Assembly (NCBI RefSeq): GCF_032118995.1 | Contig: NC_092652.1 | Location: forward strand, 27,171,339-27,235,338 | DNA length: 64,000 nucleotides | From: Asterias amurensis | Lineage: Eukaryota | Reading direction: 5' to 3' | Part shown: piece by piece, positions 1 to 61,733 of the stretch | How positions within the stretch are numbered: position 1 is the stretch's first letter | Layout: every line of letters starts with the position of its first letter | The notes under the pieces: generated by a model | The model's database searches: none | Told to the model about the DNA's origin: nothing | Seen by the model: only the letters and a program-made list of their open reading frames with translations | Position numbers and translations under genes: made by a program

Positions 1-270
1 GGCATAAAAGTTTCAGTTAAATTATACAGAGTCTACTTGTTGAGAAACAACACAAAACTGTCATTGCATCTTCACTTGGGCTTCTTATGCTCGGCGAGGA
101 GACAGCGGGTACCAACCGCATCTCTGGCCGCAGCATCCGTAGACGGACACCAACCGTCAGAAGTCTGAGAAAAACATTATTTATAAATCCTTTATCCCAC
201 AAATCCTTCTTCAAAAAGTACACCAACAGCTGTATTAACAACTGCAATTCTTTTTAATTCTTTTGTTTAA

Positions 271-652
271 AGGCAGTGGACACTATTGGTTATTGTCAAA
301 ATAATTATTAGCATAAAACCTTACTTGGAAGCGAGTATTTGGGGAGAGGTTGATGGTATAAAACATTGTGAGAAACAGCTCCGTCTGAAGTGCCATAGTT
401 TTCGAGAGAGAAGTAATTTTCCACGAATTTGATTTTGAGACCTCAAGTTTAGAATTTGAGGTCTCAAAATCAACCATATAAACGCACACAACTTCGTGTG
501 ACAAGAGTGTGTTTTTTCTTTCATTATTATCTCGCAAGTTCGATGACCAATTGAGCTCAATTTCTCACAGGTTTGTTATTTTATGCATATGTTGAGATAC
601 ACCAACTGTGAAAGCTAGTCTTTGAGTTACCATATACTAGTGTCCACTGCCT
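271..652 (+). mobile_element. MITE family A (about 385 bp). It has 19-25-bp TIRs 'AGGCAGTGGACACTATTGGTAAT…ATTACCAATAGTGTCCACTGCCT', an internal 40-bp palindrome 'GATTTCGAGACCTCA…TGAGGTCTCGAAATC', and TTAA flanks at 267-270 and 653-656.
   Basis: A perfect terminal inverted repeat and a TTAA duplication are visible. At least 13 further copies lie in the window. The ORFs on the track inside it (283-537, 321-560) are repeat-derived. Confidence 0.85.
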
Positions 653-837
653 TTAAGGTCATTTAGAAAAATGCATATCATGATTGGTTGTTTTTTTCCC
701 CAACAGATTCAACGCTAGGCCCATATTTAGATTGGTACAAACTTTGACAATCAGTGACAATCTGTGACATTCATGGCTTCCCATAGTTTTCAAACCTTGG
801 TTGGCAAAAACTCGGTCTGTGACGTTCGATAGTATAC

Positions 838-1420
838 AAATATTGACTGCTTCGAGTGCTATGGTTAAAACTATGACTCCCGAGGTGATCTCCGGAGCGT
901 TCTATTTTCCCGAGGCGAAGCCGAGGGAAAATAGAACGCTACGGGGATCACCGAGGGAGTCATAGTTTTTAACCATTGCACGAGTAAATGCAGTCAATAT
1001 TTGTTTTATAACACCCCAAACATTTCTAATGACTGTACTGTTCTTATTACGTTACAGACCTGAATGCTACAATCCACGGACGACGCGAATACAGATTGCA
1101 AACACTTTTACTTACTGTGTTGCATTGTGTCGTGCAATCCGAAGTGGTTACAGACTATTAATTTATTATCCCAGTACACGCAACGGACGTCTGGGTATTG
1201 CACGCCATGTGCTAGTCTGTTGGACTAGCGCATGGCAAACCGACGCTCTATCACATGGCCGTCGTCTGGCAAAACTAAGACATGTCATGTGACGCGCTCT
1301 AAACCAATGAGCAGGCAGAATACTTGCAAGGGGTGTTATAAAAGGGCATAGTACTGACAAAGCTATGTTTAGTCTTGCCGTCATACAGACTACGACCCAA
1401 AGCTGAGTCAAACACAATGT
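838..1420 (+). mobile_element. Dispersed element D, copy 1. It has a 170-bp near-perfect hairpin (841-1008), roughly 330 bp of shared sequence, and then a CCAAT box (1304-1310) and a TATA box 'TTATAAAAGG' (1336-1347) at its 3' edge.
   Basis: The hairpin arms are 'caaatattgactgcttcgagtgctatggttaaaactatgactcccgaggtgatc…gatcaccgagggagtcatagtttttaaccattgcacgagtaaatgcagtcaatatttg'. A second copy with the same order of parts is at 27020-27480, and the homology ends about 20 bp after the TATA box in both copies. Confidence 0.6.
1336..1347 (+). promoter_or_regulatory. TATA box 'TTATAAAAGG', 26 bp downstream of a CCAAT box (ACCAATGAG, 1303-1311), carried by element D copy 1
   Basis: This is the canonical Pol II core-promoter spacing. 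The same pair (TCAATGAA…TTATAAAGACG) is at 27410-27455 in copy 2. Confidence 0.4.
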
Positions 1421-3814
1421 GTTAATTTTTATGAATGTTTAAGTGCCTTACCGGCCATGAGGTGTATGTCGTTTGAATCGGATTTGATAGACTCCCAACG
1501 GATGAACCAAATGATATGGATTCAGTGTTAATCTCTATCAGTCCTGTTGCCATGGAGTATATAGAACTCCCACTGTAAAATAAAAACCAAAGTAAAAATA
1601 CTGAATTACCAGGGGGTACCGTGTTTGTGTAAAGGCAATTTTTTTTTAAATAGATAAATAAATAGCATCAACAACAGCAGTAGCAGCAGTACAAAGTTCT
1701 ATTTACGACGTCCATTAACACCCTTAACGGCAGCCATAGCCGTTGCCGTAGCCGTAGCTGCAAATTCGTATACGGCCTTAGCCGTAACAAAATCGGAAAT
1801 GGAACTAAACATGGTAGGTTAAACAAAGACGTATGCATGGAGGGCAGTACACCTCGTGCGTGACACAGCCCAATTTAATACAGCTGCTAAAGCAGGGATT
1901 GCTTAAACATTTTTCGTTAAGCAGAAATGAGCAGGATACCAGCAACACATAGTACATATGAAATGATAGTTTGGTTGGTAACCTTATTCTGGCAAGCAAA
2001 ATGTTTTTTGTACTTAAGCAGCTCTATGAAATTAAGCACTGGCCTTTGACAAACTTGGAAGACCTATCGCACCACACGTACGTGCAAATATTCTTCTATT
2101 GGTTGAAGACTGAAGCAAAAGCCACTAGACTTCCTGAATTCGATAATATTCCTACCTAATCGAATTGATTCCAATCTCAAGTTCGAGATCACAAATATCT
2201 GGGCTAATCCTTCTGCAGAAATCACAACACGTGTTGTCGTATGCCCTGTCGTCTCCTGTGTATTTAGTCAGTAGTAACTCCATTGTTGCATAACCGTTTA
2301 CTGGGTGTGGTACCTGGACGTAAACATAGAATAAACAAAACCTATTTATTTAATGTTGAAAAAAACCAAATTCATTTCATTTCAATTTAATTCAATTCGT
2401 TCTAATAATGGTTTATAAAAACATGACTGGCTGTCAAAAACTGAAGTGCTTACACTGCCAGCAACAGTTTTGTTAGCAAAAACCCATTCTGAGTGTTCCT
2501 TTAGTCAGTATAGTAATGCTTAAAAGCAATGATATTAAGAATTATATTATTGATAATGTAGGTAAAAAACAAGTAATGAGACTGTTGTCACCTCTATCCG
2601 ATCGTCTCCACTTAGGAAATGTAGTGGGATTTTTTTTTTAAACCGTTTCGGTTGTTTTAACCATATATACAAATGTAGTTGTATACAATCAAATAAACTT
2701 GTGAAAAATACATTTCAAACGTCATCACGTTTTTGAAATATCGCTGAAACGCCGGAGCGAATATTATGTCAACTCCGTAACAATAATCACTATAGGAACA
2801 ACCAGCTGATAAGCGTTACCGCGGTAACGCGTCTTACATATTCAATTTGTGGGGATAAAAAGTGATATCCTTTCCGTAACCGTAGTACTTCTGTAAACTG
2901 CTTTTGTTCATTTATTGTATTCTTTGCAATGCTATTGGCTGTTTGTTAAAGCGCTGTGGTCTAATAGAAATGGCGCTATACAAAAGCCCAGTGTATGTAT
3001 GTATTTGTGTACATGTGTTGCATGTATGTATGTGTGTACTGTTTGTATGAATGTATTAATTACCATTAACTTTCAAAGTCATTACCAAACGTATTTACAC
3101 ATAGCTTGAAATTGATCTCAGGCGACCGTAAATGGCATGTGTATTTCACCTGGCTTACGGTTGAATAATGTTAAAAGCATGCCTTCTGACAAAACATATT
3201 GGTTATAAAACTTAGGAGTAATTAGATCGTTTCTTTATCAGTGGACATGCGTTTTTATTATTTACTTTATTCATGGTCGTCACTACGGAGTTAGTTAAAG
3301 GTTGGGCTTTAATGGTTATTGCCCGAATGCGCATTACTGACCTACTTGTTCTAAAGATGGTATAATGGTTATAGTTCGTCTGAAATGCCCCATTACTTCC
3401 AACTCAATAATACTATAAGTGAGAATACTAGTCTTTGATAATCTTCAAACGAGTCCAGTGCCTTTGAACCATGAATATAAATCGTACATCGTGTGGATAT
3501 GTGAATAATTGTCATGTAAATTTAATTGTCATGTAAATTTAAGAGGATACTTCTAGATCTTCTTTTAAAAACATTTTCGTTCTTTGAAACAAATGTTCAT
3601 TATGTTAATGTACATAACAATCTCTACGAAAAAGGACACGGTCTGTGTTGAAAAGATGCATCCTGTGAAAAGGAAGGGTTATTATTTGGTTTTTTGTCAA
3701 CATAATGTTGATTTATATAGAAACAATTTCAATGGAAGATGCATTCAGTTTAGGCCTAATACAGTGTATTCTGTAACAAACGTCGAATCTATTCACGTTA
3801 TAAGCCATGGACAC

Positions 3815-4156
3815 CTTGTGTAATATTATCAAAGACCACTATTCTCATGTATCCGAACTAAAAAAATTCATAAAATAAACTGTAAAAATTTTGACTCTAT
3901 TGGTCATCGAAGTTTCCAGAGAATAATAAAAGAAAAACACCCTTGGTTGCACAACTTTGTGTGCTTTTAGATGCATGATAAAAAGGCTTCGTTTTTTGAA
4001 GTGAGAAATTCCCTATTTCTCAAAAACTTTGTTACTTCAGAGGGAGCCGTTTCTCTCAAGGTTTTATACTATCAACAGCTACTATTGCTCGTTACTAAGT
4101 TGTTATGCCAACAATTGTTTTTAGTATTTACCAATAGTGTCCAGTGCCTTTAAAGC
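3815..4156 (-). mobile_element. MITE family A, old degenerate copy
   Basis: The termini are 'caaagaccactattctc…ttaccaatagtgtccagtgccttt', and the internal 'cttcagagggagccgtttctc' segment is shared. Confidence 0.55.
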
Positions 4157-4589: not shown

Positions 4590-4950
4590 ACACTGTATAA
4601 CACGTTTGGTAATTGTCAAAGACCAGTATTCTCACTTGGTGTGTCCCAACAATGCATAAAGTGGCATACCTGTGAACATTTGAGCTTAATTTGTCATCAA
4701 AGTTGCAAGAAAATAATAAAAGAACAGACACCCTTGTTGCACAAACGTAAGCTTGCAGTATTTCAGTATTTCTCAAATGCAAATAATTGAGTGAAAAAAT
4801 ACCTCCTTCTCCTTAACTGCATGCGTTACTTCAGAAAGAATCGTTTCTCACAATGTTTTAAACTATCAACAGCTCTTCGTTGCTCGGTACAAAGTTAGTA
4901 TGCTAATATTTATATTTGAGTAATTACCAAACGTTTCCAGTGCCTAATTA
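4590..4950 (-). mobile_element. MITE family A, old degenerate copy
   Basis: The termini are 'ggtaattgtcaaagaccagtattctcacttggtgt…gagtaattaccaaacgtttccagtgcct'. Confidence 0.5.
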
Positions 4951-7821: not shown

Positions 7822-8199
7822 AGACACTGGACACTATTGGTAATTGTCAAAGACTAGCCTTCACCGTTAGTGTATCTCAACATATGCATAAAATAACAAA
7901 CCTGTGAAAATTTGAGCTCAATCGGTCATCGAAGTTGCGATATAATAATGAAAGAAAAATAACCCTTGTCACACGAAGTTGTGTGCGTTTAGATGGTTGA
8001 TTTCGAGACCTCAAGTTCTAAATCTGAGGTCTCGAAATCAAATTCGTGGAAAATTACTTCTCTCTCGAAAACTATGTCAATTCAGAGGGAGCTGTTTCTC
8101 ACAATGTTTTATACTATCAACCTCTCCCCATTACTCGTAATCAAGAAAGGTTTTATGATAATAATTATTTTGAGTAATTACCAATAGTGTCCACTGCCT
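7822..8199 (-). mobile_element. MITE family A copy, TTAA-flanked (7818-7821 and 8200-8203)
   Basis: The termini are 'agacactggacactattggtaattg…attaccaatagtgtccactgcct', and the internal palindrome 'gatttcgagacctcaagttctaaatctgaggtctcgaaatc' is present. Confidence 0.8.
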
Positions 8200-8244: not shown

Positions 8245-8520
8245 GAGGCGCGAAGACCAGTATTCTCACTTTGTGTATCCCAATTGCATAAAATAACAAA
8301 CCTGTGAACTATGGGCTCAATTGGTCATCGAAGTTGCAAGAAAATAATGGGGGGGGGGGAACCTCTTATTGCACACGCTTGTGTGATTTCATGCCTGAAG
8401 TCTTTCAATGTTTAAGTGATAAATTACCCCCATTCTAAAAAACGACGTTACTTCAGATGGAGCCGCTTTTCTCTCACAATGCTTTATACTATCAACAGCA
8501 TTCCATTGCACAAAAAGTTT
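8245..8520 (-). mobile_element. MITE family A, 5'-truncated partial copy containing a G10 tract
   Basis: 'gaagaccagtattctcactttgtgtatcccaattgcataaaataacaaacctgtgaa…cttcagatggagccgcttttctctcacaatg' matches the family interior. Confidence 0.5.
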
Positions 8521-11736: not shown

Positions 11737-12237
11737 GTAAGGTTGGCAAAAGGTTTCCAATATTTATGGAACTGCTGAACTAAAGTTTTAAAATGCTCAG
11801 TGTTTCAAAAGTTTATTTCAATTGTTGCAATACTAAGTACTAAAATTGAAACTTTGCTTTGCAAGGTTCGCAGTATAAAGCATCAAGGCCTGCATGGAAT
11901 AGCTCGCCCGTTGTGGAGGCTCTTAAACGAATCGACATTGTTACTTAGTTTCACTCAAAATTAGTTTGTGTATAACATCATTATCAACAGTGACATCGGA
12001 TTCTGTTTATTTAGGTATTTTGTTGATGTTGATAAGTTGTCGTCTTTACTTTTTGATGAGGGCAAAGAGAAAAAATGACTAATTTTGAAAAAATGTTAAA
12101 CTCATAATGAGTATACGTTCTTTTAATAATCTATCACTCTTGCTGTATTTCATTTCAAATTTGTTTGTCAACTTCTTGAAGACTACTGGCTTGAAACAAT
12201 TCGTTTTTTTGCAAATTGTTTGAAATTCCATGCATGA

Positions 12238-12941: not shown

Positions 12942-13920
12942 CGGAGACCTCACAGTGTCACTACTTTCGGTGAAAAGGACTCAAACAATTGTAGAAATAT
13001 TGTGTCTCAACTTCTCAAGTCTTCTTTAGGTACACTTGAGGTACTCAATATCGAAGATGCGGTAGTCAAAACATCGAAATAACTTAAAAGACGCGCTTAT
13101 TTTAAACAACTGTTAATGATTTTCAATTTAATTGTTGGATAACTGGATCATTGTTACTTATATTTTAAGTATTTTATTTATTTTCACAGAAATTTATGAA
13201 ACAACGGATTCATATGAAATGAGCTTCAATTAATTTTAAAAGGTTTAAAATGATGTTGCCGAGGTGAAATTCTTTGAAAGTCTTTACTAGCCTCAAGGAC
13301 AAGTCGTTAAAATGTCTGTCGCGGTTTTGCAGTCAAGACGGTAGCATCTTCACATATCAAAGGCGTTAAAGTATTTGGTCAATAACTCATGATTTGTTGA
13401 AGACTAATTCATCGAAAACCTCTCAACTAAAAATTGATATAAATAGTTGATTATTCTTTGGGATTATTGGTCCAAAATAGCCGTGCTAACTTTATATATC
13501 GCTAGTTTATTATACCCTCCAGTTTACGATAACTGACTTTGTATATTCGCGTTTTATAAACCAGTGGGCTTGGGCTATGTTAGTTATTTTGAAAAAGTGA
13601 AAAAAAAATTCTTCGGCTGCTCTTCAAGAGGAAGCCTGATTGAAATATAGAGTCCAAAATATAGCCATATTTATCATTTGTATTTATTATAACTTCAGGG
13701 ATAGGATAACATGCAATGGTACTAATAGTAATACGACTTGTTATGCGCATAAATCAATATGTTGACTGTGGTAATTGTTTGAAGGTTTTAGGAAAATAAT
13801 GGACTGTTAAGATTAACAATAAAATTAACCTGAAAAATACTTTGTTTTGTTTCCTATCTTTTAATTTTATGATAATTTGAAACAAAAATCAAGGTAGTCA
13901 CACATACCTTTCTTTTTTTC

Positions 13921-14015
13921 ACAGGTTTGTTATTTTATTTATACATGTATTTTGAGATACACCAAGTGAGAAGACTGGTCTTTGAAAATTACAAATAGTG
14001 TCCACTGTCTTTAAG
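13921..14015 (+). mobile_element. MITE family A, 3'-terminal fragment
   Basis: 'cacaggtttgttattttatttatacatgtattttgagatacaccaagtgagaagactggtctttgaaaattacaaatagtgtccactgtcttt'. Confidence 0.5.
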
Positions 14016-14480: not shown

Positions 14481-15238
14481 AGGCAGTGGACACTATTGGT
14501 ATAATTACTCAAAATAAGGGTTAGCATAAAAACTTCCTTTGTAACAAACAATGGGGAGTTATTGATAGTATTAAAGGAACACGTTGCCTTGGATCGGACG
14601 AGTTGGTCTATTAAAAGCGGTTGAAACCGTTTGTTATGAAATACGTATGGTCAGAAAGATGTTTAAAAAGTAGAATATACTGATCCACACAAGTATCACT
14701 CGAAATTGCACGGTTTTCATTTTACGGCGCGAACTAACACGGTCGGCCATTTATGGGAGTCAAAGTTTTGACTCCCATTGGCCGACCGTGTTTGTCGATG
14801 AGGTAAAAAGAAATCCACGCAATTTCGAGGCATATTTGTGTAGATCATTGTATTCTACTTTTACAACATCTTTCTACCCATATGCATTTTATAACAAACG
14901 GTAACAGACGCTTTTCAAAGACCAACTCGACCGATCCAAGGCAACGTGTTCCTTTAAACATTGTAAGATAAGGCTTCCTCTGAAGTAACGTAGTTTTCGC
15001 GAAATAAGTAATTTTCCACTAAAATATTTGAATTTAATTTCGAGACATCTGAAAGCACACAACTTCGTGTGACTATGGTGTTTTTTCTTCTTCCATTATT
15101 ACCTCGCAACTTCGATGACCAATTGACTACAAATCTTCACAGGTTTGTTATTTTATGCATATGTTTAGATACACCCAAGTAAGAAGACTAGTCTTTGACA
15201 ATTTCATACCAATAGTGTCCAGTGTCTTCAACAATTTC
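14481..15238 (+). mobile_element. MITE family A copy interrupted by a nested MITE family B insertion (14575-14953)
   Basis: The outer termini are 'aggcagtggacactattggtat…ccaatagtgtccagtgtct'. The family-A sequence resumes exactly after the insert, at '…cctctgaagtaacgtagttttcg'. Confidence 0.8.
14575..14953 (+). mobile_element. MITE family B (about 380 bp). It has 36-bp TIRs 'AGGAACACGTTGCCTTGGATCGGACGAGTTGGTC', an internal 49-bp palindrome 'cggtcggccatttatgggagtcaaagttttgactcccattggccgaccg', and TTAA flanks at 14571-14574 and 14954-14957.
   Basis: A perfect long TIR and a TTAA target-site duplication can be read directly. It is nested inside a family-A MITE. Confidence 0.8.
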
Positions 15239-17439
15239 TTGCACAACTACAAATAAGAAACTCGGAGCTAGCTGCATTTGTTCCAGGATCGCGGTTAACA
15301 TAAACATATCGACGGCAGCATTTTTTCATTCGTTAAACAGTTATTATATATGTTTACTCAAATGAAATATTCGATTTGGTGAACATAATTATGTGAAAAA
15401 GGTGGTTGCAGGATACGAACATTTTCACACTCGTATAGTATCATATTCAACCTGTTTTCTACAGAGCCTGTAAAAAAAAAAAAAACAACAACAATTGTTT
15501 TCTTATTTTGTTTTGTTCTCTCGCCCCTCAAAACAATATTTCGTTCCCCACGAAATAACATGCCGAACTAATATTTGAAGGGAACTAAAAATATTTATAA
15601 AAAAAAAACAAAAAAAAACGTCGCTTTAGGGGCTCCGTAGTCTTCGAGGTGACAATAAAGCAATGTTTCTCCAGCAATAAAAGTGTGGCCAGATTTCTCT
15701 TAAAACTCACCCATGATCTTGAATAGAATGGTGGTGGCAGCAGCTGGTTCTTTCAGATTGAGTCATGAAGTCCAATATGCAGTGGACAGTACTCAAATAA
15801 TGTTGAACTTTGATAGAAAGAATGAAAATGGTTCACCTCGCCGTGCCTCGTGGTGCAGCTAGGCATCAAAGTGTAGGAATGACCATTTAACATCGAGTAT
15901 AGACCCTTTCACGGTGTGGCCATCTTGATTTTACTCCATTCCCTGAACGAAATAGTAGTCTGGTGCCATGTTTGCGCAATGAATGTTAGTATTTATTACT
16001 GTTATTAATACAGGGAACATGACCAAGATGGTGACAGCGTGATAAAGGTCTATAGAGCGCCTAAGATGTGGAACTGGAGCTCTTTCTATTTGCAACGTGA
16101 AATAACCATGCACCGTTTCGGCAAAGGAAACGTTCTGTTATGTCATTGAAAGCCAATGGTCAAACACCGATCTTGTATTGTGTGAAAAGAATTACTTGCT
16201 GAAATTGCCGTCAAGTGAACATTTTTAATAAAATGTAATTTTTTGTATTTGCGCCTTTGGTGCTTTATACCATACATCTTTGATTGTCACTGTTCAACAG
16301 CGCGCAACCCATGGTTCACTGCGTTCTAGTTATCTGACTGTATTTGTTTGTGTATGATGCAAATTGGCGTGAATAGCTTGCATAATTGGCTGACGAATAA
16401 CTTGACTAAGCCAACCATTAAGAAAACCCATTTGACTAAAAAATAAACGATTAGCTATTAGTTATTGCTCTGGCTCTAAGATAGACTTTTACTTAGGTCG
16501 AAACGGCAAGCCATCATTATTTTGAAACTATACCACAGGTTCTTATGGCTGGTGAGAATTTCAAAATGTTGTTTTTGTTCCCTAATTAATAAACAGCGCC
16601 CTCACTGGGATCAATTAAGACCTATCATTGGCCGTGAGTTGTGCGCGGCGCGTTACACGCGTGTGTGTTTCCATAACAGTACAGGGGCCAATTTCATAGA
16701 GCTGCTTAAACGGACACACCGGCTCACCGTTTACGCAATTTAGGGGTGTAGAATCATAAATAATGTTTTGTTTAGATTGTTGCTGTAAAAAAAATCATCA
16801 AAATGTCACGTATTTAGCAAAAAATGATTTTAAAAAACCAAAGCGGCCATATAACAAGCTTCCGTTACACGGACTCTTTGAATGTGAATCTTACGTTAGA
16901 TTTTTCACCATTATTTACATTTTGTAGCGATAATTTGAATACATGATCTTTTTCGTCAATTATTCGTAAATAATTTTGTAAAAAAAAGATTTAAATTTGG
17001 TTAAGTAAGTTACTTTTAGACGGCTGAAAGTAAAACTAGCCCGGAAGGTCACGTGATTGTTTGTACCACTTTTTGGTTAGAATAATCACGCGACCTGCGT
17101 TTTTGTCTTAAAATGCTCAAAAACGGCTAAATTTGATGATTTTTTTAAGGACTGTTCTTCTTCATTCCTGGAAGACCGTTGAAGTCATATCTTAGTCTAT
17201 TTTGTAGCCCAAATAGCCCAATTCGGCCGGTGTGTCCCTTTAAGCAAAAAAATTGCTTAAGCACGAAAAAACTCACTTATTTTACACATGTTACTGGGCA
17301 AAATTTCATGCCATATACATTGCTTGTGACTGAATTGTTTCTTGTTCGCCTGCTTATTAAACAATGAGTATTCCGTCGTAATAATGTTTGAAGATGACAA
17401 CAGAACTTCGAGAAGAGGAATAACATCATTGTACAAAGG

Positions 17440-19135: not shown

Positions 19136-19555
19136 AAAGGCAGTGGACACTATTGGTAAATACTCAAAATAGTTATTAGCATAACACCTTACTTGGTAAC
19201 GAGTAATGTGGAGAGGTTGATGGTATAAAACATTGTGAGAAACGACTCCCTCTGGAGTAACGTAGTTTTCGAGAAAGAAGTAATTTTCCACGAATTTGAT
19301 TTCGAGACCTCGGATTTAGAACTTGAGGTCTCAATATCAAGCATCTGAAAGCACACAACTTCGTGTGACAACGGTGTTTTTTCTTTCATAGTTATCTCGC
19401 AACTAATTGAGCTGAATTTTTTACAGGTTGGTTATTTTATGCATATGTTGAGATCCACCAAGTGAGAAGACTGGTCTTTGACAATAATAATACAAAATAA
19501 TAACCAGGGCGTCTCAAAGTGCTTCAATTTTTTATACCAATAGTGTCCAGTGTCT
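19136..19555 (+). mobile_element. MITE family A copy, TTAA-flanked, with a roughly 40-bp internal insertion
   Basis: The termini are 'aggcagtggacactattggtaaatactc…ccaatagtgtccagtgtct', with TTAA on both sides. Confidence 0.8.
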
Positions 19556-27019: not shown

Positions 27020-27480
27020 TACAAATATTGACTGCTTCGAGTGCTATGGTAAAACTACGACTCCCGAGGTGATCCCCGGAGCGTTCTATTTTCTCGAGGC
27101 GCAGCCGAGGGAAAATGGAACGGTCCGGGATAACCGAGGGGGTCGGAGTTTTAAACATAGCACGAGTTAAAGCAGTCAATATTTGTTTTATAACACACCC
27201 AACAGACTATTATCATCTTCGTATACACATGTACCGTTCGTACGCGCGTTTCAGATACACAGATGCATAACTGATTGGGTTCGAGGTGGATAAAAGACGT
27301 CTGGGTACTGCATGCCGTGTGATAGTCGTCGGACTACCACACGGCAAACGATGCACTATCACACGGCCGCCGTCTAGTAAAACTAAGACATATCATGTGA
27401 CGCGCTCTAAATCAATGAAAAGGCAGAATATTTGTATGGGGTGTTATAAAGACGGGTAGCACATGACGTTATTGACCACC
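27020..27480 (+). mobile_element. Dispersed element D, copy 2 (hairpin at 27025-27187, with CCAAT/TATA at 27410-27455). It lies inside an intron of the SufS-like gene, antisense to it.
   Basis: It is roughly 85% identical to copy 1 over the hairpin and over 'gacgtctgggta.tgca.gcc.tgtg…aaaactaagacat.tcatgtgacgcgctctaaa.caatga..aggcagaata.ttg.a.ggggtgttataaa'. Confidence 0.6.
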
Positions 27481-29453: not shown

Positions 29454-29519
29454 CTTTGCACCACTCTCCTTCCATGGCAAAATGTTAGAATGATGCTCAT
29501 ACGGACCAACAAAAACAAC
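29454..29519 (-). CDS. SufS-like gene exon (VVFVGPYEHHSNILPWKESGAK)
   Basis: The acceptor is cctgcag|GTT and the donor is GCAAAG|gtaaaa. 'YEHHSNILPW' matches the SufS/CsdA signature 'MEHHANIVPW'. Confidence 0.75.
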
Positions 29520-30714
29520 CTGCAGGAAAATCAAATATTTTCTGTGTCAGTTATAGCTCCTTTAACCATATCTTTACGACTGTTGTCACAAGTTAATGAT
29601 CCCAAAACAGACGTTATAGGTATAACACAAGATTGACAATCATAACAAAAACCTTTATTTTAGTTGTAACAACCGAAACCAGTTGTTGCGCTTAAATTTT
29701 CCGACACAGTTTTCTCGAATATGACTTCATTTGATGTGAAAATATTTCACAGAAAAAAGTGCGAACTTCATAATAAGCGTACTGATCATTAAATTCACTC
29801 TAGAAACGTTTTCCTCTGAGAAAATGTTCAAATGAAATGAAGTCAAATTCGAGAAAACCCTATCTGAAAATCTAAACGCAAGAGCTGAATGCTAAAAATG
29901 GTGCATGTTTTTTCACACATTATTTTGTCCTAACTTCCACAACCCATTAACCAAATGTTCACAGGATTGTTGTTTCATGAGTATGGTTGATCACACAAAA
30001 CATGATCACTGTCAGGAACACTGTATGAAACTAGTTTGTCATCTCTAAATAGCATTCTTGTAGCCTTCAAATTGCATTACAAACTTTAAATTAAAACTGT
30101 TGTGAACCCGATGAGAAACAAAACTAAGATGAAGCAACAACGGGTTCCACTAACAGCTTGTTCACACAAGGAACCAAGCTCATGCACGTGTTTCATTCCT
30201 GACCCACATTAGATCCTCGGGGAGTAATTGTTGTAAACAACTCCTTATAAAAACAAACCAGACTGTCCACAGTTATTGCCATTACCAAAGAGGGCTGGCA
30301 ACTTAAGAACTCATGGTTCAAAGGTCAACGCAGTTTCGCCAAATCAATCTATCGGTGAACACAGGGTAAACTGTACTTTGCAATCTGTCGAGGTTTCAAG
30401 GGACGGACATTTTGCTAGAGTTTCAGGTGGCAAAACCATCTTGTATTTTATTTAATGTACAACCCGCGTGATTTGAATATTAAGTATCCACTATATGCAA
30501 TTGTACACAAGAAACATGGCACATAAATGTAGGCTGCATTGAAGTTTAGGCTTTTATATCTGTGTAAATGCAGAGTAATTTACACAAACGAATATTCATG
30601 TTGGTAATTGGGGTTGTATTTAAAAATACATTTGGCAATGGCCGCCTTTCGAAAATACGGCTTGGGCTCAGTCAGTTATTTAGAAAACGTGTGCGATATC
30701 CTTTTAGGACTTCA

Positions 30715-36294: not shown

Positions 36295-39200
36295 CTGAAA
36301 TAGAGACAGAAAAAGACATTTATTTGGTTGTTACATCAGTAGAAACTAAAGTTGATGTAGAAGTCTAAATATTACCAGGAGTTTACCAACGTCATATTCA
36401 TATAGGATATATGACTAAAAGGCATTGGGCAGGCGTAGCTAGGGTGTCTGGTGCCCGTGGTTGAGGTAAGATGACGGTGCACTTTCACCCACTTTGTCTT
36501 TGAAACTCTCAGCAAGTCTTACCAACACCCACCGCTTTCAAATAATCTTTGTTTTTTAATAACTTGAAAAAAGACATTGGTCGGTTTAACCATGTAGGTA
36601 GATGCATGGTTTAACGGCCAATGGGCTCACACGCGTCACATGTCCTCCCCACCCCCATAAGCCACGGTGTATTACAGGACGTGTTCACCCATGTGTTCCT
36701 CTTCATTGCATTTATTCTATCATTTAGGTCTGATAACAGACTGAAGTGTTCCTATATTTTTAGCGAGCTTTCCTAAACACGGAGACTGCGGTCACACCAA
36801 TACGACATTCATTCAAATTACATCATATGAGGAAATTATATTAGAAAGACAAATGAACGCTCATAATTGAATGAACTTAATGAAAATGCTGTCTATTGAC
36901 AAATGTGATAGTTGAAAAGTTGATTTATTTGTCACTTTATTTTTTAATTGTAAACAATATGTTTTTATTCCAACTATAGTGTAACCATGGTCAGGTAGCA
37001 AAAACCCTTTCCCTCTCTTTCATCCCATGATATTCCACTTATTGCTTCAACAGATTGCCATAAAACTCATCTCTCATCGGATATTCAAATATGACCCACT
37101 CAACAATGTCTCTTGACACTATGGAAAATATAGATTTCTGTTCACACCTGCGTAAGTTAAAGTAAATACAGGCGGCATAAGGCCAGCCGAGTCTACGCTC
37201 AATGGGCCATTGCAAAAGTTGGCTTAAAAACCGTCCCCCGCAAACCCCCCGCTAAGTTCACTGCACAAAGGCGCAAAAATTAACCCCCACGATGCAAAAA
37301 ATGTTTGCCTTAGCATGTCCCCCTTTTGAATTTCATCACCTTGCCTTATCTAGGTTAGAATTATTTTCTTTTTTAAATAAATAGATTTTTCTTGTCAGTA
37401 TCACGCGATTAAGTGTGGTCATGCACATCTTACATTTAAAACATCTCTATCCGGGTGTGAACTTCCTTTCACAATACAAATTTTGATTGATCAACAACCA
37501 AACCCCTTTCCCCCGCGTTTTCTGAATGACAGAGGCGCGCCCAAAGATCTGCACTTTCATGATTGCAATCGTGATGTCAACTTATTTTATGAATTGTTAA
37601 CGACAAAGGGTAGGGCCTAGGTCTGCCGTATCTTGTTCAAGGAAGACTTTGTCAATTTGTTTTCCCATGGGATCAATGAGAAGTTATTTTAAAGCGATAA
37701 GACTCTTTATTTGGTAATCACACTTTAAAATCATTGGCAATAAAAGCTTACTTAGAAGTAGGCATAGATCAGTTTTCGATAGAATAAAGCATTTTGATAT
37801 TAATTTCACTTCGAAGTATTAAAATGTGCTTATGGAAACATTTATCAGTTTTTATGCCCCCAAATTTGTGTGTATTCCAATTACAGAGTATTCTTCCTGC
37901 TCCGGATTTTCGACAATTTCTCAAAAACGTTACCAACTTTTGAGATGAAATTTTCTCAGGTTAGTTGTTTTGTGTAATATCTAACATTTTTATAGGATTA
38001 AACAATCGAACGGCCCAAAAACCAAAGGGGTGTGTGTGTCCTTTTAACATAATCCGTCCATGATTTGGAACAATCTCCCTCCTGCGCCATTAGGGAATCT
38101 GATACCCTATCTGCTTTTCGTAAAGTCCTTAAGACTCACCCTTTTCCCACTTAATTTCTTTCTATAGTGCGCTATGAATAGCGCCTTATAAATTTTAATT
38201 GTTATGTTATGTTATAATAATAGCCTCTTTTCAGTCGGATAATAGTTTATCGACACTTTATTTGAGCAGGCAAGGGAAACAAGATGGTACAAAGTATCCC
38301 AACAACATGAAACTTTGTAAAAGATAGTCATCACCACTTTTTTGGACGACACTTTGCTTTCCTCGATAAACTTATAGTGTAAATCAAGTTCAATACACGA
38401 ACGTTCATAGGCCCATGTAGCTAAACTTGACACTTTCGACCACAACTTTTCCTGGTTAACCAGTTTCCTATATTCCTGGGACAAACTTGTACTGTCTTTG
38501 CGTTGGAAAGTGTAGAATAGAACTGACAGTGACAGTGAATTAGAGGTTACAACTTACAACATACCAATCCGGTACGTCATCGTGTGAGGTCAAGGGTCAT
38601 TTGTTCCAAGGCTGTGGGCAAATCTTTACTTATTCTGCATGTACTAACCATTGGACTAAGACATTGGGATTGGAATGTCACTAACTGTGCCCAATTTCAA
38701 GATCATTGCTCTGCTTTCTGTTGGCTTATGAGCTTACTACGGACCAGTGTGCTTTACATGGCACCGTAAGCGCAGAATTTCACGGTAGGCACGGAACCAT
38801 GAAATTGAGCCCTTGAGCTTAAATCCCTCGTTAGTAGGCCAATCACTTCTCGTGTTTGTTTTAGCCTACATACCATATCCTGTGTGATTGTGCTTCCTTG
38901 AAGTTCGACAATGGTAGGACATTTTCAGTTTTAGTTAAAGACCAGCATTTTTTTAACCTATGTAACCCAACATATACATTCCTTACAACAAATAACAAAC
39001 CTGTGGAAGTTGAAGACCAGTTAATGAGTCACCAACAAAATAACAACCTGTGAAAGTTTAAACACAGTTAATGAGTCACCAGAAGTGAAAATTACCTCAA
39101 TGACTCATTGTGTTCAAGAAATAGGGATTATGTTCAACACTGAACTTAGCTGGACTAGTTTTTTTTTTTTTTACTGGTTCTTTGGTGTTCCAACTGACAT

Positions 39201-42512: not shown

Positions 42513-44684
42513 TGGGTTTGCTTGAGGTTCCTAACTTTAAACGTGATGAAAAACTCGACACAGTGAGTGGTGTCGGTGATTTGAGCTATTGTTTTCCAGG
42601 AGAACTCAGTAGTAGAAGATCGTTGGTTGGCTGGTACGTGTTATAGTAGTGTAGGCCTACTTGGCTGGTACGTGGTATAGCAGTGTAGGCCTACTGGTCA
42701 GTGCTTCAGGGGAACCCACTTACCCAACTTTACTCCCTACATGAAGGTTGGACCTAAACACATGCAATAGTCCTCGATTCTTGGTGGTGCTTCAAAACAC
42801 TATTGTCAGTACACAACGGAGTACCCTCTTGATAACAAACGACAATACGTATTCGCAGATTAGAGGTGGTTTGTTAACTGGTTTATAGTCAAGCGATTGC
42901 CGTGGTATGCTGGCTAACACCACTACTGCTCTGGCTGTATACTTGAATGAACGGGACGCAGGGTATGCTGACGGTGTTGCTCTGTTGGCCTTCACGCTGT
43001 AAAGCTGGTTCCCTTTATGGGCTTTGGGTTTAACCACAGGTGGAACTTGCCTTCTGGTATGTTTGATGTTGTGATAGACGGATTACATGCAGTTTGTTTA
43101 TGTGGTAATGTTTTTATAGTTATCACAGTTGTGTGTTGATACTAGACGGTGGTGAGGAATTGTTCTCTGAACACGATGACGCTATCACAATGCTGATCCA
43201 TGACCCACTGGCCACTCTTCAAATTCCACAAGGTTCAATCATGGAGTATGAATAAACTTCGATGAATCAAGTGAGAGTTCAATTGTGTTTTATTGCTGGT
43301 GTGAAAGAGACAAACTTTCCAACCGATTGAGTCCGTGGGTGTATCTGGTCATCTACCTCCATGATCTGTTACACATTGTACCCATATTTGTACCTATTGA
43401 CACAGAAAACTTTCCGCAAACTATTGTGCCCCAAAGATTTATAAAAAATATGGAAAAGATCGAAGTTAGTATGTTCATGTTCCTATCATGAGGGTAGAAA
43501 TGTTCCTACCAGTTACTACTTTTGATGTTGATTTTATATCCGAGTAGAATAAGGATTATGAATTCAATAACGGAAGGTGTTCTTAATCTGTAAGGCCAAG
43601 GTAAAGTCACGACCGGGCGGCGGGGTCTCTTGTAGTGGTCAACACACCCTGAAGGGGGCACTAAGCGCCCCATGACCGACTCCATGTGTTTTAAAGCAGG
43701 CTTCAGAAACACCACGTTGGGGTGGGGCAGGGGATTTTGTCTGAAGTTTGCGAAATTTCTCAAACAACTTTTGATAATACTCTGGACCTTTTTTCAAACA
43801 CAAGGTTGACGAGATAACTCTTAGATTAGCGTGTAGAGAAAACATATTACTCAGCTGAAAATACCCTTTTCAATTTACTAAAAACGCTGTAGTCCTACTC
43901 AACATAATGGACTCAACACAATTTTCTTTTACGAATGATCTTTGTGTTAATATTGTCCTTTATATTCATAGTCTCATAGTTTAATAGGGATAAGCCTCTC
44001 TTAAAACAAATAGTGTGGTGAAGTGATAATCATGGTCGCCTCCTGTCTTTTGATGTGGTTGGTGTAGTGGAATTTGAGTGCAGCTAGTTTGCCATATTAA
44101 CACACAAAAATCAATTAACCAAAACAACCCTTATTGACCAAAATAACAAAAGCTTACCAATGCGTAATGGATCGAGTTACGATCTTGGACAATACAATAA
44201 CTATATCTAGCGGAGGCCGTCCAGGGAAAGGACAAAGTATATTTTTAAATGTCGAAAAAAAAATACGCACTCCCAGACCTTGCTAATTTAAAAGAGACGG
44301 CAAAATTGAAAGCAACAAGAAAAAGTAGCGGTGCTTGGGGGGGGGGGGGGGGTAGGGGGCAAGTTGTTTGTCCCCTGCCCCTTGATTAATGCCCTCACTT
44401 TCCCAGTCAATTTAGCTAGTTCCCTGATGGCCAGAATTAAATTGAACCCCAAACCACATTAATGTAATTATGATCACGTTCCTCCAGCTACAGAGAAACC
44501 TTGCTGTAAATCTGTCATTGGTTGGTCAGCCAATGTTTTTTGAGCAGGACAAAATGGCATTCGCCCCAAAGAAATTTAAGCTTGACCTCAACCCCTAGAC
44601 CATGCCTAGACTGACAGGCCTGAAGTCGATTTCACCAAGATAGTCCGATTTAGGAACAGTCCTATTCGACGCAGTCCTATAAAA

Positions 44685-45242
44685 GCACTGGACAACACTA
44701 TTGGTTATTAAGCACTGGACAACACTATTGGTTATTAAGCACTGGACAACACTATTGGTTATTAAGCACTGGACAACACTATTGGTTATTAAGCACTGGA
44801 CAACACTATTGGTTATTAAGCACTGGACAACACTATTGGTTATTAAGCACTGGACAACACTATTGGTTATTAAGCACTGGACAACACTATTGGTTATTAA
44901 GCACTGGAAAACACTATCGGTTATTACTATAAAAACATTTTAGCTTACAAACTTACTCGGTAAAGATCAATGTAGAGCTGTATAAAACTTTGTGAGAAAG
45001 AAGTAATTTTTCACTAAAATATTTTAATATAATTCCAGACCTCAGCTGAGGTCTCGAATTCACGCATCTGAAAGCACATAGCTTGTGCAACAAGGGTGGT
45101 TTTTTTTCATCCATTGTTCTCTCGCAACTTCGATGACCAACCGAGTTCAAGTTTTCACATGTTTGGTATTTTATGCATGTTGAGATACACCAAGTGAGAA
45201 GACTGGTCTTTGACATTAACCAAAGGTTCCCAGTGCCTTTAA
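44685..45242 (+). mobile_element. MITE family A copy whose 5' TIR region has been amplified into a 27-bp tandem array (44685-44930, about 9 units of 'GCACTGGACAACACTATTGGTTATTAA'). The normal MITE body and 3' TIR follow, ending '…ccaaaggttcccagtgccttt'.
   Basis: The tandem unit is a diverged copy of the family-A terminus 'AGGCAGTGGACACTATTGGTAATTAC'. The body from 44940 to 45242 matches the family interior, including 'cagacctcagctgaggtctcgaatt'. Confidence 0.7.
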
Positions 45243-51629: not shown

Positions 51630-53082
<1,453 letters not shown>

Positions 53083-53585: not shown

Positions 53586-53950
53586 AGTACACGTTTGGTA
53601 ATTGTCAAAGACCAATGTTCTCACTTGGTGTATCCCATCATAACCATAAAATAACAAACCTCTAAAAATTTGGCAACAATTGGTCATCGAAGTTGCAAGA
53701 AAATTATGAAGCTAAAAATACCGTTGTTAGACGAATTTGTGTGATTTAAAATAGGAATAAAAGACTTCTAGCTAGAAGTCTTTTAATTTTTTTTTAGTGA
53801 GAAATGACCTCTTTCTCAAAAACTATGTTACTTCAGAGGGAGTCATTTCCCACAATGTTTTACCTATCAACTGCTCTCCAATGCTTGTTACCAAGTCAGT
53901 TTTTAAGTTAATATTTGTTTTGAGTAATTACCAAACAGGTACCTTCCCTT
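53586..53950 (-). mobile_element. MITE family A, diverged copy
   Basis: The termini are 'acgtttggtaattgtcaaagaccaatgttctcacttggtg…gagtaattaccaaacaggtacc', and the internal 'cttcagagggagtcatttcccacaatgtttt' segment is shared. Confidence 0.55.
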
Positions 53951-54719
53951 TAAAGGGTAGTTTTTTTTAAACAAGAACAAGAAAAGAAACAAAGTTCTCT
54001 TGTCAAACAGAAATAAGTTTAACTTCATATCAGTGACATAGACCTCAGCGTTGACAAATCTTGTAGATCATTACCACATCTGGTTAAAGCATTAGTTGAG
54101 AGTAATATGCAATTTGTGACATTTACTGACAGACACAAGTGGCATGGGAGAGATTTGCTTTCATCATATTAGAAATCTTAAACACACCCATACACCTAAC
54201 AGGTGCTTACACAAAAACCTTTTATTTAAACAATGGGGAAAATTCCCCGGAAAGCCATTCATTCTCCCAACCCATCGTTCTATAACGACCAGGATTCACA
54301 GATTATTGACACTCCTTATGTTCGACAATCACGGTCATTCAATCATTACCTCATCACCATAGTAACGCTTTCCATACAAGCAAACATCTGATGACCAATT
54401 GAGTCGAAACCTTCACATGTTCGTTATTTTCTTTATCTGTATCTGTCACATGAAGTGTTGATACTGGTTTTTGACAAGGATCAATGTTGTCCACTATGCT
54501 TAATTGATATGACACGTTGTAAAACACTTAGAGAGAAAGTAATTTTTTTAGAAAGTAATTTTAAGAAATGTTTGTAGATGTAGTTATATACCTTAAACTA
54601 ACCTGTGTAAATGTCATTTCAAAAGGTAGTAGTGTTTGTACAGCTATGTCTTTATTATCACCAAATTTTCTCACATATTATCTTGTGATTATTTGACAAA
54701 CTGTACTTAATTAATAGCA

Positions 54720-55147: not shown

Positions 55148-55153
55148 TTATTA

Positions 55154-57964: not shown

Positions 57965-58328
57965 TTTAAAGCCATTGGACACTTTCGGAACATAATTTTT
58001 TTTAAAGTTCACAGATTTACAAATAACTTACAGGGTTTACAGAAGGTAATGGTGAAAGACTTCTCTTGAAATATTATTCCATGAAATGCTTTACTTTTTG
58101 AGAAAACATTAAAACAATATCAATTCTCGTTATCGAGAATTACGTACTTATTTTAATCACATGTCATGACACGACGAAGTGTGCGGAAACAAGGGTGGGT
58201 TTTCTCCCGACTCCGTTGACTAATTGAGCCTAAATTTTCACAGGTTTGTTATTTGATATAGAAGTTGTGACACACGAAGTGTGGGCCTTGGACAATACTG
58301 TTTACCGAAAGGGTCCAATGGCTTTAAC
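57965..58328 (+). mobile_element. MITE related to family A (TIR variant 'AGCCATTGGACACTTTCGG…CCGAAAGGGTCCAATGGCT'), TTAA-flanked
   Basis: The TIRs are perfect inverted copies. TTAA is present at both ends ('actTTAAagccattgg' and 'caatggctTTAActg'), and the 3' body matches family A ('aattttcacaggtttgttatttgatat'). Confidence 0.6.
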
Positions 58329-58743: not shown

Positions 58744-59115
58744 AGGCAGTGGACACTATTGGTAATTACTCAAAATAATTGTTAGCTTAAAACCTTAATT
58801 GTAAACAAGTAATGGGGAGCTGTTGATAGTATAAAACATTGTGAGAAACGGCTTCCTCTGAAGTGACGTAGTTTTCGAGAAAGAAGTAATTTTCCATGAA
58901 TTTGATTTCGAGACCTCAGATTTAGAATTTGAGGTCTCGAAATCAAGCATCTGAAAGCACACAACTTCATGTGACATGGGTGTTTTTTCTTTCATAGTTA
59001 TCTTGCAACTCCGACGACCAGTCGAGCTCTAATTTTCACAGGTTTGTTATTTTATGCGTATGTTGAGATACACTAAGTGAGAAGACTGGTTTTTGACAAT
59101 TAGTATCCAGTGTCT
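58744..59115 (+). mobile_element. MITE family A copy, TTAA-flanked (58740-58743 and 59116-59119)
   Basis: It is nearly identical to the copy at 271-652, so this is a young insertion. Confidence 0.85.
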
Positions 59116-61354: not shown

Positions 61355-61733
61355 AGGCAGTGGACATTATTGGTAGTTACTCAAAATAATTATTAGCATA
61401 AAACCTTACTTGGTGACGAGTAATGGGGAGAGGTTGATGGTATAAAACATTGTGAGAAACGGCTCCCTCTGAAGTGCCATAGTTTTTGAGAAAGAAGTAA
61501 TTTTCCATGAATTTGATTTCGAGACCTCAGATTTAGAACTTGAGGTCTCGAAATCAACCATCTAAACGCACACAACTTTGTGTGACAAGGGCGTTTTCTT
61601 CTTTCATTATTATCTCGCAAGTTCGATGACCAATTGAGCTCAAATTTTCACAGGTAGGTTATTTTATGCATAAGTTGAGATACACCAACTGTGAAGGCTA
61701 GTCTTTGAAAATTACCAAAAGTGTCCACTGCCT
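61355..61733 (+). mobile_element. MITE family A copy, TTAA-flanked (61351-61354 and 61734-61737)
   Basis: It is about 95% identical to the copy at 271-652. Confidence 0.85.

What the first reader, a model, noticed from the sequence alone, without database searches (positions are those of the whole stretch)
267..656. Abundant 385-bp MITE family with TTAA target-site duplications, a piggyBac-type signature, in at least 14 copies per 64 kb
Every intact copy (271-652, 7822-8199, 19136-19555, 58744-59115, 61355-61733) has perfect TIRs 'AGGCAGTGGACACTATTGG' and is flanked by TTAA on both sides. The elements also carry an internal 40-bp palindrome. TTAA duplication is the hallmark of piggyBac-superfamily transposition. 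Three young copies are about 95% identical, which implies recent mobilisation by an autonomous partner that is not in this window. Copies land both in introns and between genes.
Basis: seen in the sequence. Interest (0 to 1): 0.5.

Follow-up and report, generated by a model that had tools for sequence, protein, structure and literature searches.

The report
Starfish TTAA-inserting miniature transposon family
This is a real, abundant family of about 380-bp non-coding "hitch-hiker" transposons in the sea star Asterias amurensis that always insert at TTAA, but their end sequences fit the Kolobok superfamily rather than piggyBac, so it is an ordinary new member of a known kind.

Summary
The window is Asterias amurensis DNA. 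The repeat is real: 16 loci in 64 kb, six of them full-length at 372-418 bp (one more is split by a nested element), with about 25-nt terminal inverted repeats and no coding capacity.

The TTAA duplication is now shown directly. Copies 271-652 and 7822-8199 are missing from the orthologous A. rubens locus, which has one TTAA where A. amurensis has TTAA-element-TTAA. Two unrelated TTAA-flanked families give the same filled/empty pattern, one in each species.

Two details fail. The inverted repeats are imperfect in most copies. The "young" trio is 91-92% identical, not 95%.

The piggyBac label is probably wrong. 28 of 29 termini start 5'-AG and end CT-3'. piggyBac ends keep a conserved terminal C...G (PMC5381638, PMC2872659). 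TTAA plus 5'-RR...YY-3' defines Kolobok, as in Xenopus T2-MITEs with "TTAA AGGRR" (PMC9587614, PMC6004289).

No transposase was found in the window, and I could not retrieve an Asterias partner, so the Kolobok assignment rests on end signatures only. Verdict: a routine, apparently undescribed MITE family, of low to moderate interest.

The parts
271..652 (+). Full-length family-1 MITE (382 bp), TTAA on both sides. Specific to A. amurensis.
   Evidence: nhmmer E = 1.7e-124. The A. rubens orthologous site L001 ~1210-1226 has a single TTAA ('ttgtTTAAggtc').
3806..4149 (-). Older, diverged family-1 copy (about 81% to consensus). The 5' end is TTAA|AGGCACTGG and the 3' end is degraded. Shared with A. 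rubens.
   Evidence: orthologue L001 3967-4292
4590..4945 (-). Older, diverged family-1 copy with TIR variant AGGCACTGGAAACGTTTGGTAATTAC. Shared with A. rubens.
   Evidence: The 3' flank reads TTAC here and TTAA in A. rubens (L001 4747-5087).
7822..8199 (-). Full-length family-1 MITE (378 bp), TTAA on both sides. Specific to A. amurensis.
   Evidence: nhmmer E = 1.3e-130. The empty site in A. rubens is L001 7667-7670, 'gactcTTAAccaa'.
8251..8510 (-). Internal fragment of a family-1 copy, shared with A. rubens.
   Evidence: model positions 65-353; L001 7717-7958
13916..14010 (+). 3'-terminal fragment of a family-1 copy ending ...CTGTCT|TTAA.
   Evidence: orthologue L001 14319-14412
14481..15227 (+). 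Family-1 copy shared with A. rubens, split in A. amurensis by a nested element. Flanks are TTAA and TCAA here; the right flank is TTAA in A. rubens.
   Evidence: The uninterrupted orthologue is L001 15104-15481.
14575..14953 (+). Nested second MITE family (379 bp, near-palindromic). TIR AGGAACACGTTGCCTTGGATCGG..., TTAA on both sides. Specific to A. amurensis.
   Evidence: A. rubens has a single TTAA at the site ('gttgatTTAAacat', L001 ~15176).
16710..17239 (+). Third TTAA-flanked TIR element (530 bp), with ends ACGGACACACCGGC and AGGGACACACCGGC.
   Evidence: It lies in a larger indel relative to A. rubens, so there is no clean empty site.
19138..19555 (+). Full-length family-1 copy (418 bp, with an extra 3' insert), TTAA on both sides. 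Shared with A. rubens.
   Evidence: Orthologue L001 18809-19261 is 93.7% identical.
29897..30004 (+). Family-1 fragment inside an intron of the minus-strand aminotransferase gene.
   Evidence: E = 6.8e-7. The flanking conserved exons are at 29451-29579 and 31024-31180.
38918..39019 (-). Weak family-1 fragment.
   Evidence: E = 8.6e-5
44683..45238 (+). Diverged family-1 copy. Its 5' terminal 27 bp (TIR) is amplified into 9 tandem units at 44683-44926. The 3' end is ...CCAGTGCCT|TTAA.
53586..53949 (-). Diverged relative (78% to consensus) with TIR AGGGAAGGTACCTGTTTGGTAATTAC after TTAA.
54387..54495 (+). Family-1 3' fragment.
   Evidence: E = 1.8e-9
57970..58323 (+). Related element (354 bp) with TIR AGCCATTGGACACTTTCGG, TTAA on both sides. 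It shares the 3' internal region with family 1.
   Evidence: model positions 215-382
58744..59115 (+). Full-length family-1 copy (372 bp), TTAA on both sides, with a partly deleted 3' TIR.
61355..61733 (+). Full-length family-1 copy (379 bp), TTAA on both sides. This is the best match to the family profile.
   Evidence: nhmmer E = 1.1e-132

Best explanation
A family of about 380-bp non-autonomous class II (cut-and-paste) transposons, that is MITEs, in the genus Asterias. Each copy has about 25-nt terminal inverted repeats (AGRCASTGGACACTATTGGTAATT), a conserved 45-nt internal hairpin and no gene.

Mechanism, inferred: a transposase encoded elsewhere in the genome binds the terminal and subterminal repeats, excises the element and re-inserts it at a TTAA tetranucleotide. 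Staggered cleavage and repair then duplicate the TTAA.

Shown here: TTAA is the target and is duplicated, and copies were gained or lost after A. amurensis and A. rubens split.

Inferred from end signatures only: the mobilising enzyme is a Kolobok-superfamily DDD/E transposase and not a piggyBac transposase, because the termini are 5'-AG...CT-3'. That makes this the echinoderm counterpart of the Xenopus T2-MITEs. At least three other unrelated TTAA-flanked, AG-terminated families sit in the same 64 kb and its orthologue, and two of them are also species-specific. This suggests one or more such transposases were active in both Asterias lineages.
For: - Organism: the MFSD6-like ORF is 100% identical to the A. 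amurensis protein XP_071788425.
- Family: 14 TIR matches against 0 expected. 16 profile hits in the window and 6 loci in 22.7 kb of A. rubens.
- No coding capacity: no transposase Pfam hit in 119 ORFs of 75 aa or more, no Kolobok tblastn hit, no Rfam or tRNA hit.
- Duplication: two clean family-1 empty sites in A. rubens have a single TTAA where A. amurensis has TTAA-element-TTAA. The nested family-2 element at 14575-14953 shows the same pattern. So does the A. rubens-only 551-bp element at L001 20149-20699, in the reverse direction.
- Flanks and termini: 26 of 29 flanks are exact TTAA. 28 of 29 termini begin AG and one begins GG, so all are RR.
[quoted passage not shown] T2-MITE is TTAA plus terminal AGGRR, and all ten full-length Xenopus Kolobok elements start AG (PMC6004289). 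piggyBac ends have a conserved first C, CC[C/T]T (PMC5381638; PMC2872659).
- T2 motif: the relatives with AGGGAAGG and AGGGAATG ends, and family 2 with AGGAAC, match the full AGGRR motif.
- Timing: species-specific copies are 3.2-6.5% from their subfamily consensus, against about 8.5% interspecies non-coding divergence. This is compatible with insertion around or after the split.
Against: - No autonomous element with these TIRs was found, so no transposase is tied to the family.
- Kolobok profile and single-sequence searches returned holothurian, hemichordate and amphioxus proteins but none named Asterias. The Asterias assemblies could not be searched as DNA.
- The main family's ends read AGGCA, which satisfies RR at positions 1-2 but not the full Xenopus AGGRR motif.
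- Because TTAA is palindromic and the ends are inverted repeats, the filled and empty sites are formally also compatible with a TA duplication (element AAGG...CCTT) or with no duplication.
- The empty sites could come from precise excision in one lineage rather than insertion in the other. Either way they show mobility.
Confidence: 0.7

Rival explanations
1. piggyBac-superfamily MITE: mobilised in trans by a DDE_Tnp_1_7 transposase that targets TTAA.
For: The TTAA target-site duplication is verified by empty sites. The short TIRs of 19-25 nt are within the piggyBac range. piggyBac MITEs are known in marine invertebrates, for example coral CMITEs (PMC2872659).
Against: piggyBac TIRs begin with a highly conserved C (C[C/A/T][C/A/T], typically CC[C/T]T), and the terminal G is needed for excision (PMC5381638; PMC2872659). 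Here 28 of 29 termini begin AG and none begins with C. The Kolobok literature uses exactly this difference to separate the two TTAA-specific superfamilies (PMC9587614). No piggyBac transposase domain is in the window.
Confidence: 0.12
2. A TTAA-specific element of some other or undescribed superfamily, that is neither Kolobok nor piggyBac.
For: No partner was found despite two Kolobok-directed protein searches. The main-family ends read AGGCA, not the full AGGRR of T2-MITEs.
Against: The negative searches are weak. They are word-index searches of annotated proteins, and even Xenopus Kolobok proteins were missed. Every tested defining feature of Kolobok non-autonomous elements is met. From my own knowledge, no third TTAA-plus-RR/YY superfamily is known.
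Confidence: 0.1
3. A Tc1/mariner-type (Stowaway-like) element with a TA duplication, whose real ends are AAGG...CCTT and which happens to sit in TTAA.
For: The filled and empty sites are formally compatible with T[TA]-element-[TA]A, because TTAA is palindromic.
Against: A TA-duplicating transposase does not require the outer T and A, yet 26 of 29 flanks are the full TTAA. The same strict TTAA is seen for three other unrelated families.
Confidence: 0.03
4. Not a transposon: a dispersed repeat spread by segmental duplication, or a tRNA-derived SINE.
For: None specific.
Against: The boundaries are precise, with TIRs and TTAA. Clean presence/absence occurs at orthologous sites. One element is nested inside another. 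No tRNA or Rfam match was found, and there is no poly-A or A-rich tail.
Confidence: 0.01

Closest known systems
Xenopus T2-MITE family (Xmix and relatives) and non-autonomous Kolobok elements
   Same: TTAA target-site duplication. Termini start AG(G), which is 5'-RR...YY-3'. Length is a few hundred bp. Several coexisting subfamilies have different TIR cores. The lineage is long-lived but shows species-specific insertions. One copy has a terminal segment amplified into a tandem array (44683-44926), as Xmix gives rise to Xstir arrays (PMC6004289).
   Different: There is no sequence similarity to any Kolobok sequence I could access. The main family reads AGGCA, not AGGRR. The host is an echinoderm. 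The link to a Kolobok transposase is not demonstrated here.
piggyBac-type MITEs (for example coral CMITEs; human MER85 and MER75 from my own knowledge)
   Same: TTAA duplication, short TIRs, small size, and presence/absence alleles that demonstrate mobility (PMC2872659).
   Different: Those elements begin CCCTT.../CC[C/T]T and end ...GGG, and share ends with piggyBac transposase-encoding partners. The Asterias elements begin AGG and end CCT.
KolobokP composite elements and their solo LTDRs in Patiria miniata and other echinoderms (PMC9587614)
   Same: Short (about 430-480 bp) TIR-bearing units with 18-20-nt TIRs, abundant as solo copies in a sea star. Termini are RR.
   Different: KolobokP shows no strong target specificity. 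Its Patiria LTDRs begin GGGTGC..., and none of the Asterias TIR strings occurs in that paper's consensus file. The Asterias family is strictly TTAA-flanked and was not found in the Patiria orthologous locus.

Membership tests
MITE (non-autonomous TIR DNA transposon) | Short (under about 800 bp), with no transposase or other coding capacity | tested here: met
   Full copies are 372-418 bp. No transposase Pfam family was hit by any ORF of 75 aa or more in the window. No Kolobok core was hit by tblastn.
MITE (non-autonomous TIR DNA transposon) | Terminal inverted repeats | tested here: met
   About 25-nt TIR, AGRCASTGGACACTATTGGTAATT, at both ends of all full copies, with 0-3 mismatches in the first 19 nt.
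MITE (non-autonomous TIR DNA transposon) | Target-site duplication demonstrated by filled versus empty sites | tested here: met
   Copies 271-652 and 7822-8199 are absent from the orthologous A. rubens sites, which carry one TTAA.
MITE (non-autonomous TIR DNA transposon) | Many copies of homogeneous size | tested here: met
   16 loci in 64 kb, 6 loci in 22.7 kb of A. rubens, and 5 marine metagenome contigs.
piggyBac superfamily (non-autonomous member) | TTAA target-site duplication | tested here: met
piggyBac superfamily (non-autonomous member) | TIR begins with the conserved C (CC[C/T]T / C[C/A/T][C/A/T]) and ends in G | tested here: not met
   28 of 29 termini begin AG, 1 begins GG and none begins C. 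The rule comes from PMC5381638 and PMC2872659.
piggyBac superfamily (non-autonomous member) | Shares its ends with an autonomous element encoding a DDE_Tnp_1_7 (PF13843) transposase | not testable with these tools
   No such domain is in the window. The Asterias assemblies cannot be searched as DNA here.
Kolobok superfamily (non-autonomous member, T2-MITE-like) | [quoted passage not shown] | tested here: met
   The definition is from PMC9587614.
Kolobok superfamily (non-autonomous member, T2-MITE-like) | Termini 5'-RR ... YY-3' | tested here: met
   All 29 scored termini begin AG or GG, with the complementary CT or CC at the other end.
Kolobok superfamily (non-autonomous member, T2-MITE-like) | Full T2-MITE terminal motif TTAA-AGGRR | tested here: inconclusive
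   The main family reads AGGCA or AGACA. That meets AGG (or AGA), but positions 4-5 are not RR. The diverged relatives (AGGGAAGG at 53949, AGGGAATG in L012) and the nested family 2 (AGGAAC) do match.
Kolobok superfamily (non-autonomous member, T2-MITE-like) | Shares its ends with an autonomous element encoding a Kolobok DDD/E transposase | tested here: inconclusive
   No Kolobok core is in the window or in L001. A Kol0 profile and a Holothuria Kolobok protein found 122 and 167 homologues but none named Asterias. Loci L002, L006, L007, L013 and L014 carry no matching TIR.
Kolobok superfamily (non-autonomous member, T2-MITE-like) | Repbase rule: same TSD length and terminal positions 1-11 aligning (up to 1 mismatch) with a classified element | not testable with these tools
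   The rule is quoted in PMC4455052. Repbase and Dfam are not available here. The Kolobok consensus file of PMC9587614 holds no match to the TIR.

The most novel reading that the evidence does not exclude
Four unrelated TTAA-flanked, AG-terminated families show species-specific insertions since the A. amurensis / A. rubens split: three in A. amurensis and one in A. rubens, all within about 22 kb. This may mean Asterias carries a Kolobok-type transposase that is still active or was active very recently. No Kolobok transposase has been shown experimentally to transpose, as far as I know. An active one would be a second, piggyBac-independent TTAA-specific cut-and-paste system and a possible tool. 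A less likely reading is that the enzyme belongs to a third, undescribed TTAA-specific lineage.
Probability: 0.2. Interest if true: 0.5.

Novelty: new member of a known kind. Interest (0 to 1): 0.22.

Why it matters
For genome annotation, these elements make up roughly 8% of this window and sit in introns and next to genes. They need to be masked and correctly classified. Labelling them piggyBac because of TTAA alone would be a misannotation.

For biology, the filled and empty sites give ready-made insertion markers between two widely studied Asterias species, one of them an invasive pest. They also indicate that TTAA-specific, probably Kolobok, transposition occurred in both lineages after the split.

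The finding does not open a long-standing question. It extends a known pattern, the Xenopus T2-MITE/Kolobok pairing, to an echinoderm.

Tried and rejected
- Autonomous partner in the window or in L001. tblastn with 14 Kolobok catalytic cores transcribed from Data S5 of PMC9587614 gave only chance hits with E above 0.1. A Pfam scan of 119 ORFs found MFS and cyclin domains but no transposase.
- Autonomous partner in Asterias through proteins. A Kol0 profile (A1) and the Holothuria protein P0155 were searched. No hit was named Asterias. The closest were holothurians, Ptychodera and Branchiostoma. I fetched three Holothuria loci and two anonymous Logan contigs. None carries any of the four Asterias TIRs, and I could not delimit clean Kolobok ends there.
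- Public DNA collections. An exact TIR scan of metagenome contigs found 5 short contigs of 1.0-1.8 kb with further MITE copies but no long element. Viral and prokaryotic genome collections gave nothing.
- KolobokP solo-LTDR idea. Rejected. Patiria LTDR ends are GGGTGC..., the Asterias TIR strings are absent from the consensus file, and KolobokP lacks TTAA specificity.
- PIF/Harbinger (TWA duplication). Rejected, because TAA and TTA would not be a direct duplication, and the empty site has the full TTAA.
- SINE or tRNA origin. Rejected.
- Composite element 58744-61733 (two direct copies 2.6 kb apart). Rejected, because each copy has its own TTAA pair.
- Sola superfamily. I could not find its duplication and terminus rules in the papers held, so it is only covered under 'other superfamily'.
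- Family 3 (16710-17239) as a fifth empty site. It lies in a complex indel, so I did not count it.

Full report
**Source of the window**

The only long ORF (10209-11783) is 100% identical to the MFSD6-like protein of the sea star Asterias amurensis, XP_071788425. Its 90% cluster also holds the Asterias rubens orthologue. The window is AT-rich eukaryotic DNA with no Ns.

Yes, in the main. The 19-mer AGGCAGTGGACACTATTGG occurs 14 times at up to 3 mismatches, against 0 in 100 shuffles. BLAST and a profile HMM built from seven aligned copies find 16 family loci in 64 kb:
- Six full-length copies: 271-652, 7822-8199, 14481-15227 (interrupted), 19138-19555, 58744-59115 and 61355-61733.
- Five diverged, nearly full-length relatives: 3806-4149, 4590-4945, 44901-45238, 53586-53949 and 57970-58323.
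- Five fragments.

The internal palindrome is a 17-bp stem with an 11-nt loop. Its DNA dG is about -18 kcal/mol and its z-score is -6.5 to -8.7. It is decayed in copy 19138.

Two details in the finding are wrong:
- The TIRs are not perfect in every intact copy. Several arms have 1-3 mismatches, the 59115 arm is partly deleted, and many copies carry a consistent 3' variant, AGACACTGG.
- The 'young' trio is 90.9-92.3% identical, not about 95%.

**Is TTAA a target-site duplication?**

The A. rubens orthologue of MFSD6 gave a 22.7-kb locus, L001, that aligns with window positions 1-21,900 at 85-97% identity. The non-coding mean is about 91.5%.
- At 271-652 and 7822-8199, A. rubens has no element and exactly one TTAA ('ttgtTTAAggtc' and 'ctcTTAAcca'). 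A. amurensis has TTAA-element-TTAA at both sites.
- Copies 3806, 4590, 8251, 13916, 14481 and 19138 are shared by both species.
- Where A. amurensis has a mutated flank (TCAA at 15228, TTAC at the 4590 copy), the A. rubens orthologue still reads TTAA.
- Overall, 26 of 29 scored flanks are exact TTAA.

One formal caveat applies. TTAA is a palindrome and the ends are inverted repeats. The same data would therefore fit a TA duplication with ends AAGG...CCTT, or an insertion in the middle of TTAA with no duplication. Strict conservation of all four bases argues for the conventional TTAA reading.

**More TTAA elements nearby**

- Copy 14481-15227 is split in A. amurensis by a 379-bp near-palindromic element at 14575-14953. 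Its ends are AGGAACACGTTGCC... and it is flanked by TTAA. A. rubens has the uninterrupted host copy with a single TTAA at that point.
- A. rubens carries a 551-bp element (L001 20149-20699, ends AGTCACCTGGAAAT, TTAA-flanked) where the window has one TTAA.
- A 530-bp element at 16710-17239 (ends AGGGACACACCGGC) is also TTAA-flanked, but it lies in a complex indel.

So several unrelated families with the same 'TTAA + AG...' signature moved in both lineages after the split. The alternative, precise excision from the other lineage, would equally show mobility.

**Which superfamily?**

[quoted passage not shown] - PMC6004289 defines the Xenopus T2-MITEs by a TTAA target plus a terminal AGGRR motif. 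All ten full-length Xenopus Kolobok elements it lists begin AG.
- For piggyBac, the first TIR base is a highly conserved C, and the terminal G is required for excision (PMC5381638). The usual motif is CC[C/T]T (PMC2872659).

In Asterias, 28 of 29 termini begin AG, one begins GG and none begins C. The diverged relatives (AGGGAAGG, AGGGAATG) and the nested family 2 (AGGAAC) match the full AGGRR motif. The main family reads AGGCA. A tested defining feature of piggyBac therefore fails, while the two tested defining features of Kolobok non-autonomous elements are met.

**The missing piece: the transposase**

None is in the window or in L001. I transcribed Kolobok catalytic cores from the supplement of PMC9587614 and built a Kol0 profile. 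I searched the protein collection with that profile and then with a Holothuria homologue. The hits include holothurians, Ptychodera and Branchiostoma, but none is named Asterias. Loci fetched around those hits carry none of the Asterias TIRs.

These searches see only annotated or called proteins that share exact words with the query, and they missed even Xenopus Kolobok proteins. The negative result is therefore weak. The Kolobok assignment rests on end signatures.

**Distribution and age**

- The family is present in both Asterias species. It also occurs on five short JGI marine metagenome contigs, presumably sea-star DNA.
- It was not detected in the orthologous MFSD6 loci of Patiria miniata and Acanthaster planci. 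An unidentified asteroid contig gave only one marginal profile hit, E = 5e-4.
- Orthologous copy pairs are 92-94% identical. Species-specific copies are 3.2-6.5% from their subfamily consensus, against about 8.5% interspecies non-coding divergence. That fits transposition around and after the split, from more than one source copy. It gives no evidence of present-day activity.
- At least two subfamilies (3' end ...CCACTGCCT versus ...CCAGTGTCT) and older TIR variants coexist. The extreme AG(G) and the subterminal TTGGTAATT(A/G) are the best-conserved parts of the ends. I take these, by inference, to be the cleavage and binding determinants.

**Genomic context**

By the A. rubens annotation, the copies in the first 20 kb are intergenic. 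tblastx against Patiria and Acanthaster maps exons of a minus-strand aminotransferase gene from 19.7 kb to at least 32.6 kb. The fragments at 22163 and 29897-30004 fall between those exons, so they are intronic.

**Verdict**

This is a genuine, abundant, TTAA-specific MITE family with demonstrated past mobility. I found no description of it in the papers I could search. It is most likely a Kolobok (T2-MITE-like) non-autonomous element rather than a piggyBac one. It is a new member of a known kind and of low to moderate interest.

Noticed in passing
window 14575-14953: A second, unrelated 379-bp near-palindromic MITE (ends AGGAACACGTTGCCTTGGATCGG, TTAA-flanked) is nested inside a family-1 copy. 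It is absent from the A. rubens orthologue, so it inserted, or was excised in A. rubens, after the species split.
   Followed up: yes
L001 20149-20699 (A. rubens), empty site at window ~20438: A 551-bp TTAA-flanked TIR element (ends AGTCACCTGGAAAT, with a large internal palindrome) is present only in A. rubens.
   Followed up: partly
window 16710-17239: A 530-bp TTAA-flanked element with ends ACGGACACACCGGC and AGGGACACACCGGC, single copy in the window. It sits in a complex indel relative to A. rubens.
   Followed up: partly
window 44683-44926: The 5' terminal 27 bp (the TIR) of a family-1 copy is amplified into 9 tandem units that are 99% identical. This is a minisatellite born from a transposon end, reminiscent of the Xmix/Xstir relation in Xenopus.
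   Followed up: partly
L001 ~6098-6427 (A. rubens), empty site at window ~6270: A 330-bp A. rubens-specific insertion with long imperfect inverted repeats and an apparent 8-bp duplication (CAAGTGCC). It belongs to a different transposon class, possibly hAT-like.
   Followed up: no
window ~51600-53130: About 1.5 kb of an uninterrupted AT-rich trinucleotide repeat. It reads as poly-Asn or poly-Leu ORFs, and GC is 16% in that 2-kb bin.
   Followed up: no
window 866-1342 and 27050-27450: Another dispersed repeat family (87-91% identical segments) that is unrelated to the MITE.
   Followed up: no
window 54718-55215; L008 742-1230: An ORF resembling the C-terminal tail of a retrotransposon protein. 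The same sequence occurs at 91-93% identity on a marine metagenome contig that also carries a family-1 copy.
   Followed up: no
L008-L012 (JGI contigs Ga0115548_*, Ga0115555_*, JACSEB010003510.1): Marine metagenome contigs contain family-1 copies, up to four per 1.8 kb and including nested ones. Sea-star DNA is evidently present in these 'microbial' datasets.
   Followed up: partly
L007 5958-6219, 11237-11498, 16520-16784 (Holothuria leucospilota): A 262-bp TTAA-flanked, AG-terminated foldback element (AGATGATCTGTCGTCTCG...) lies inside a 5.28-kb unit. The unit is tandemly repeated at 99% identity and carries Kolobok-type transposase gene models.
   Followed up: partly
L006 10001-20229 (Holothuria leucospilota): A gene encoding a THAP plus Kolobok-type transposase lies next to a P2RX7_C-domain gene. 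This is the KolX pairing described for Kolobok elements. I could not find the element's ends.
   Followed up: partly
window 47616-48034 and 49199-49586: A short-period simple repeat (reads as a CLFV-repeat ORF), and three copies of a tandem repeat with a period of about 140 bp.
   Followed up: no
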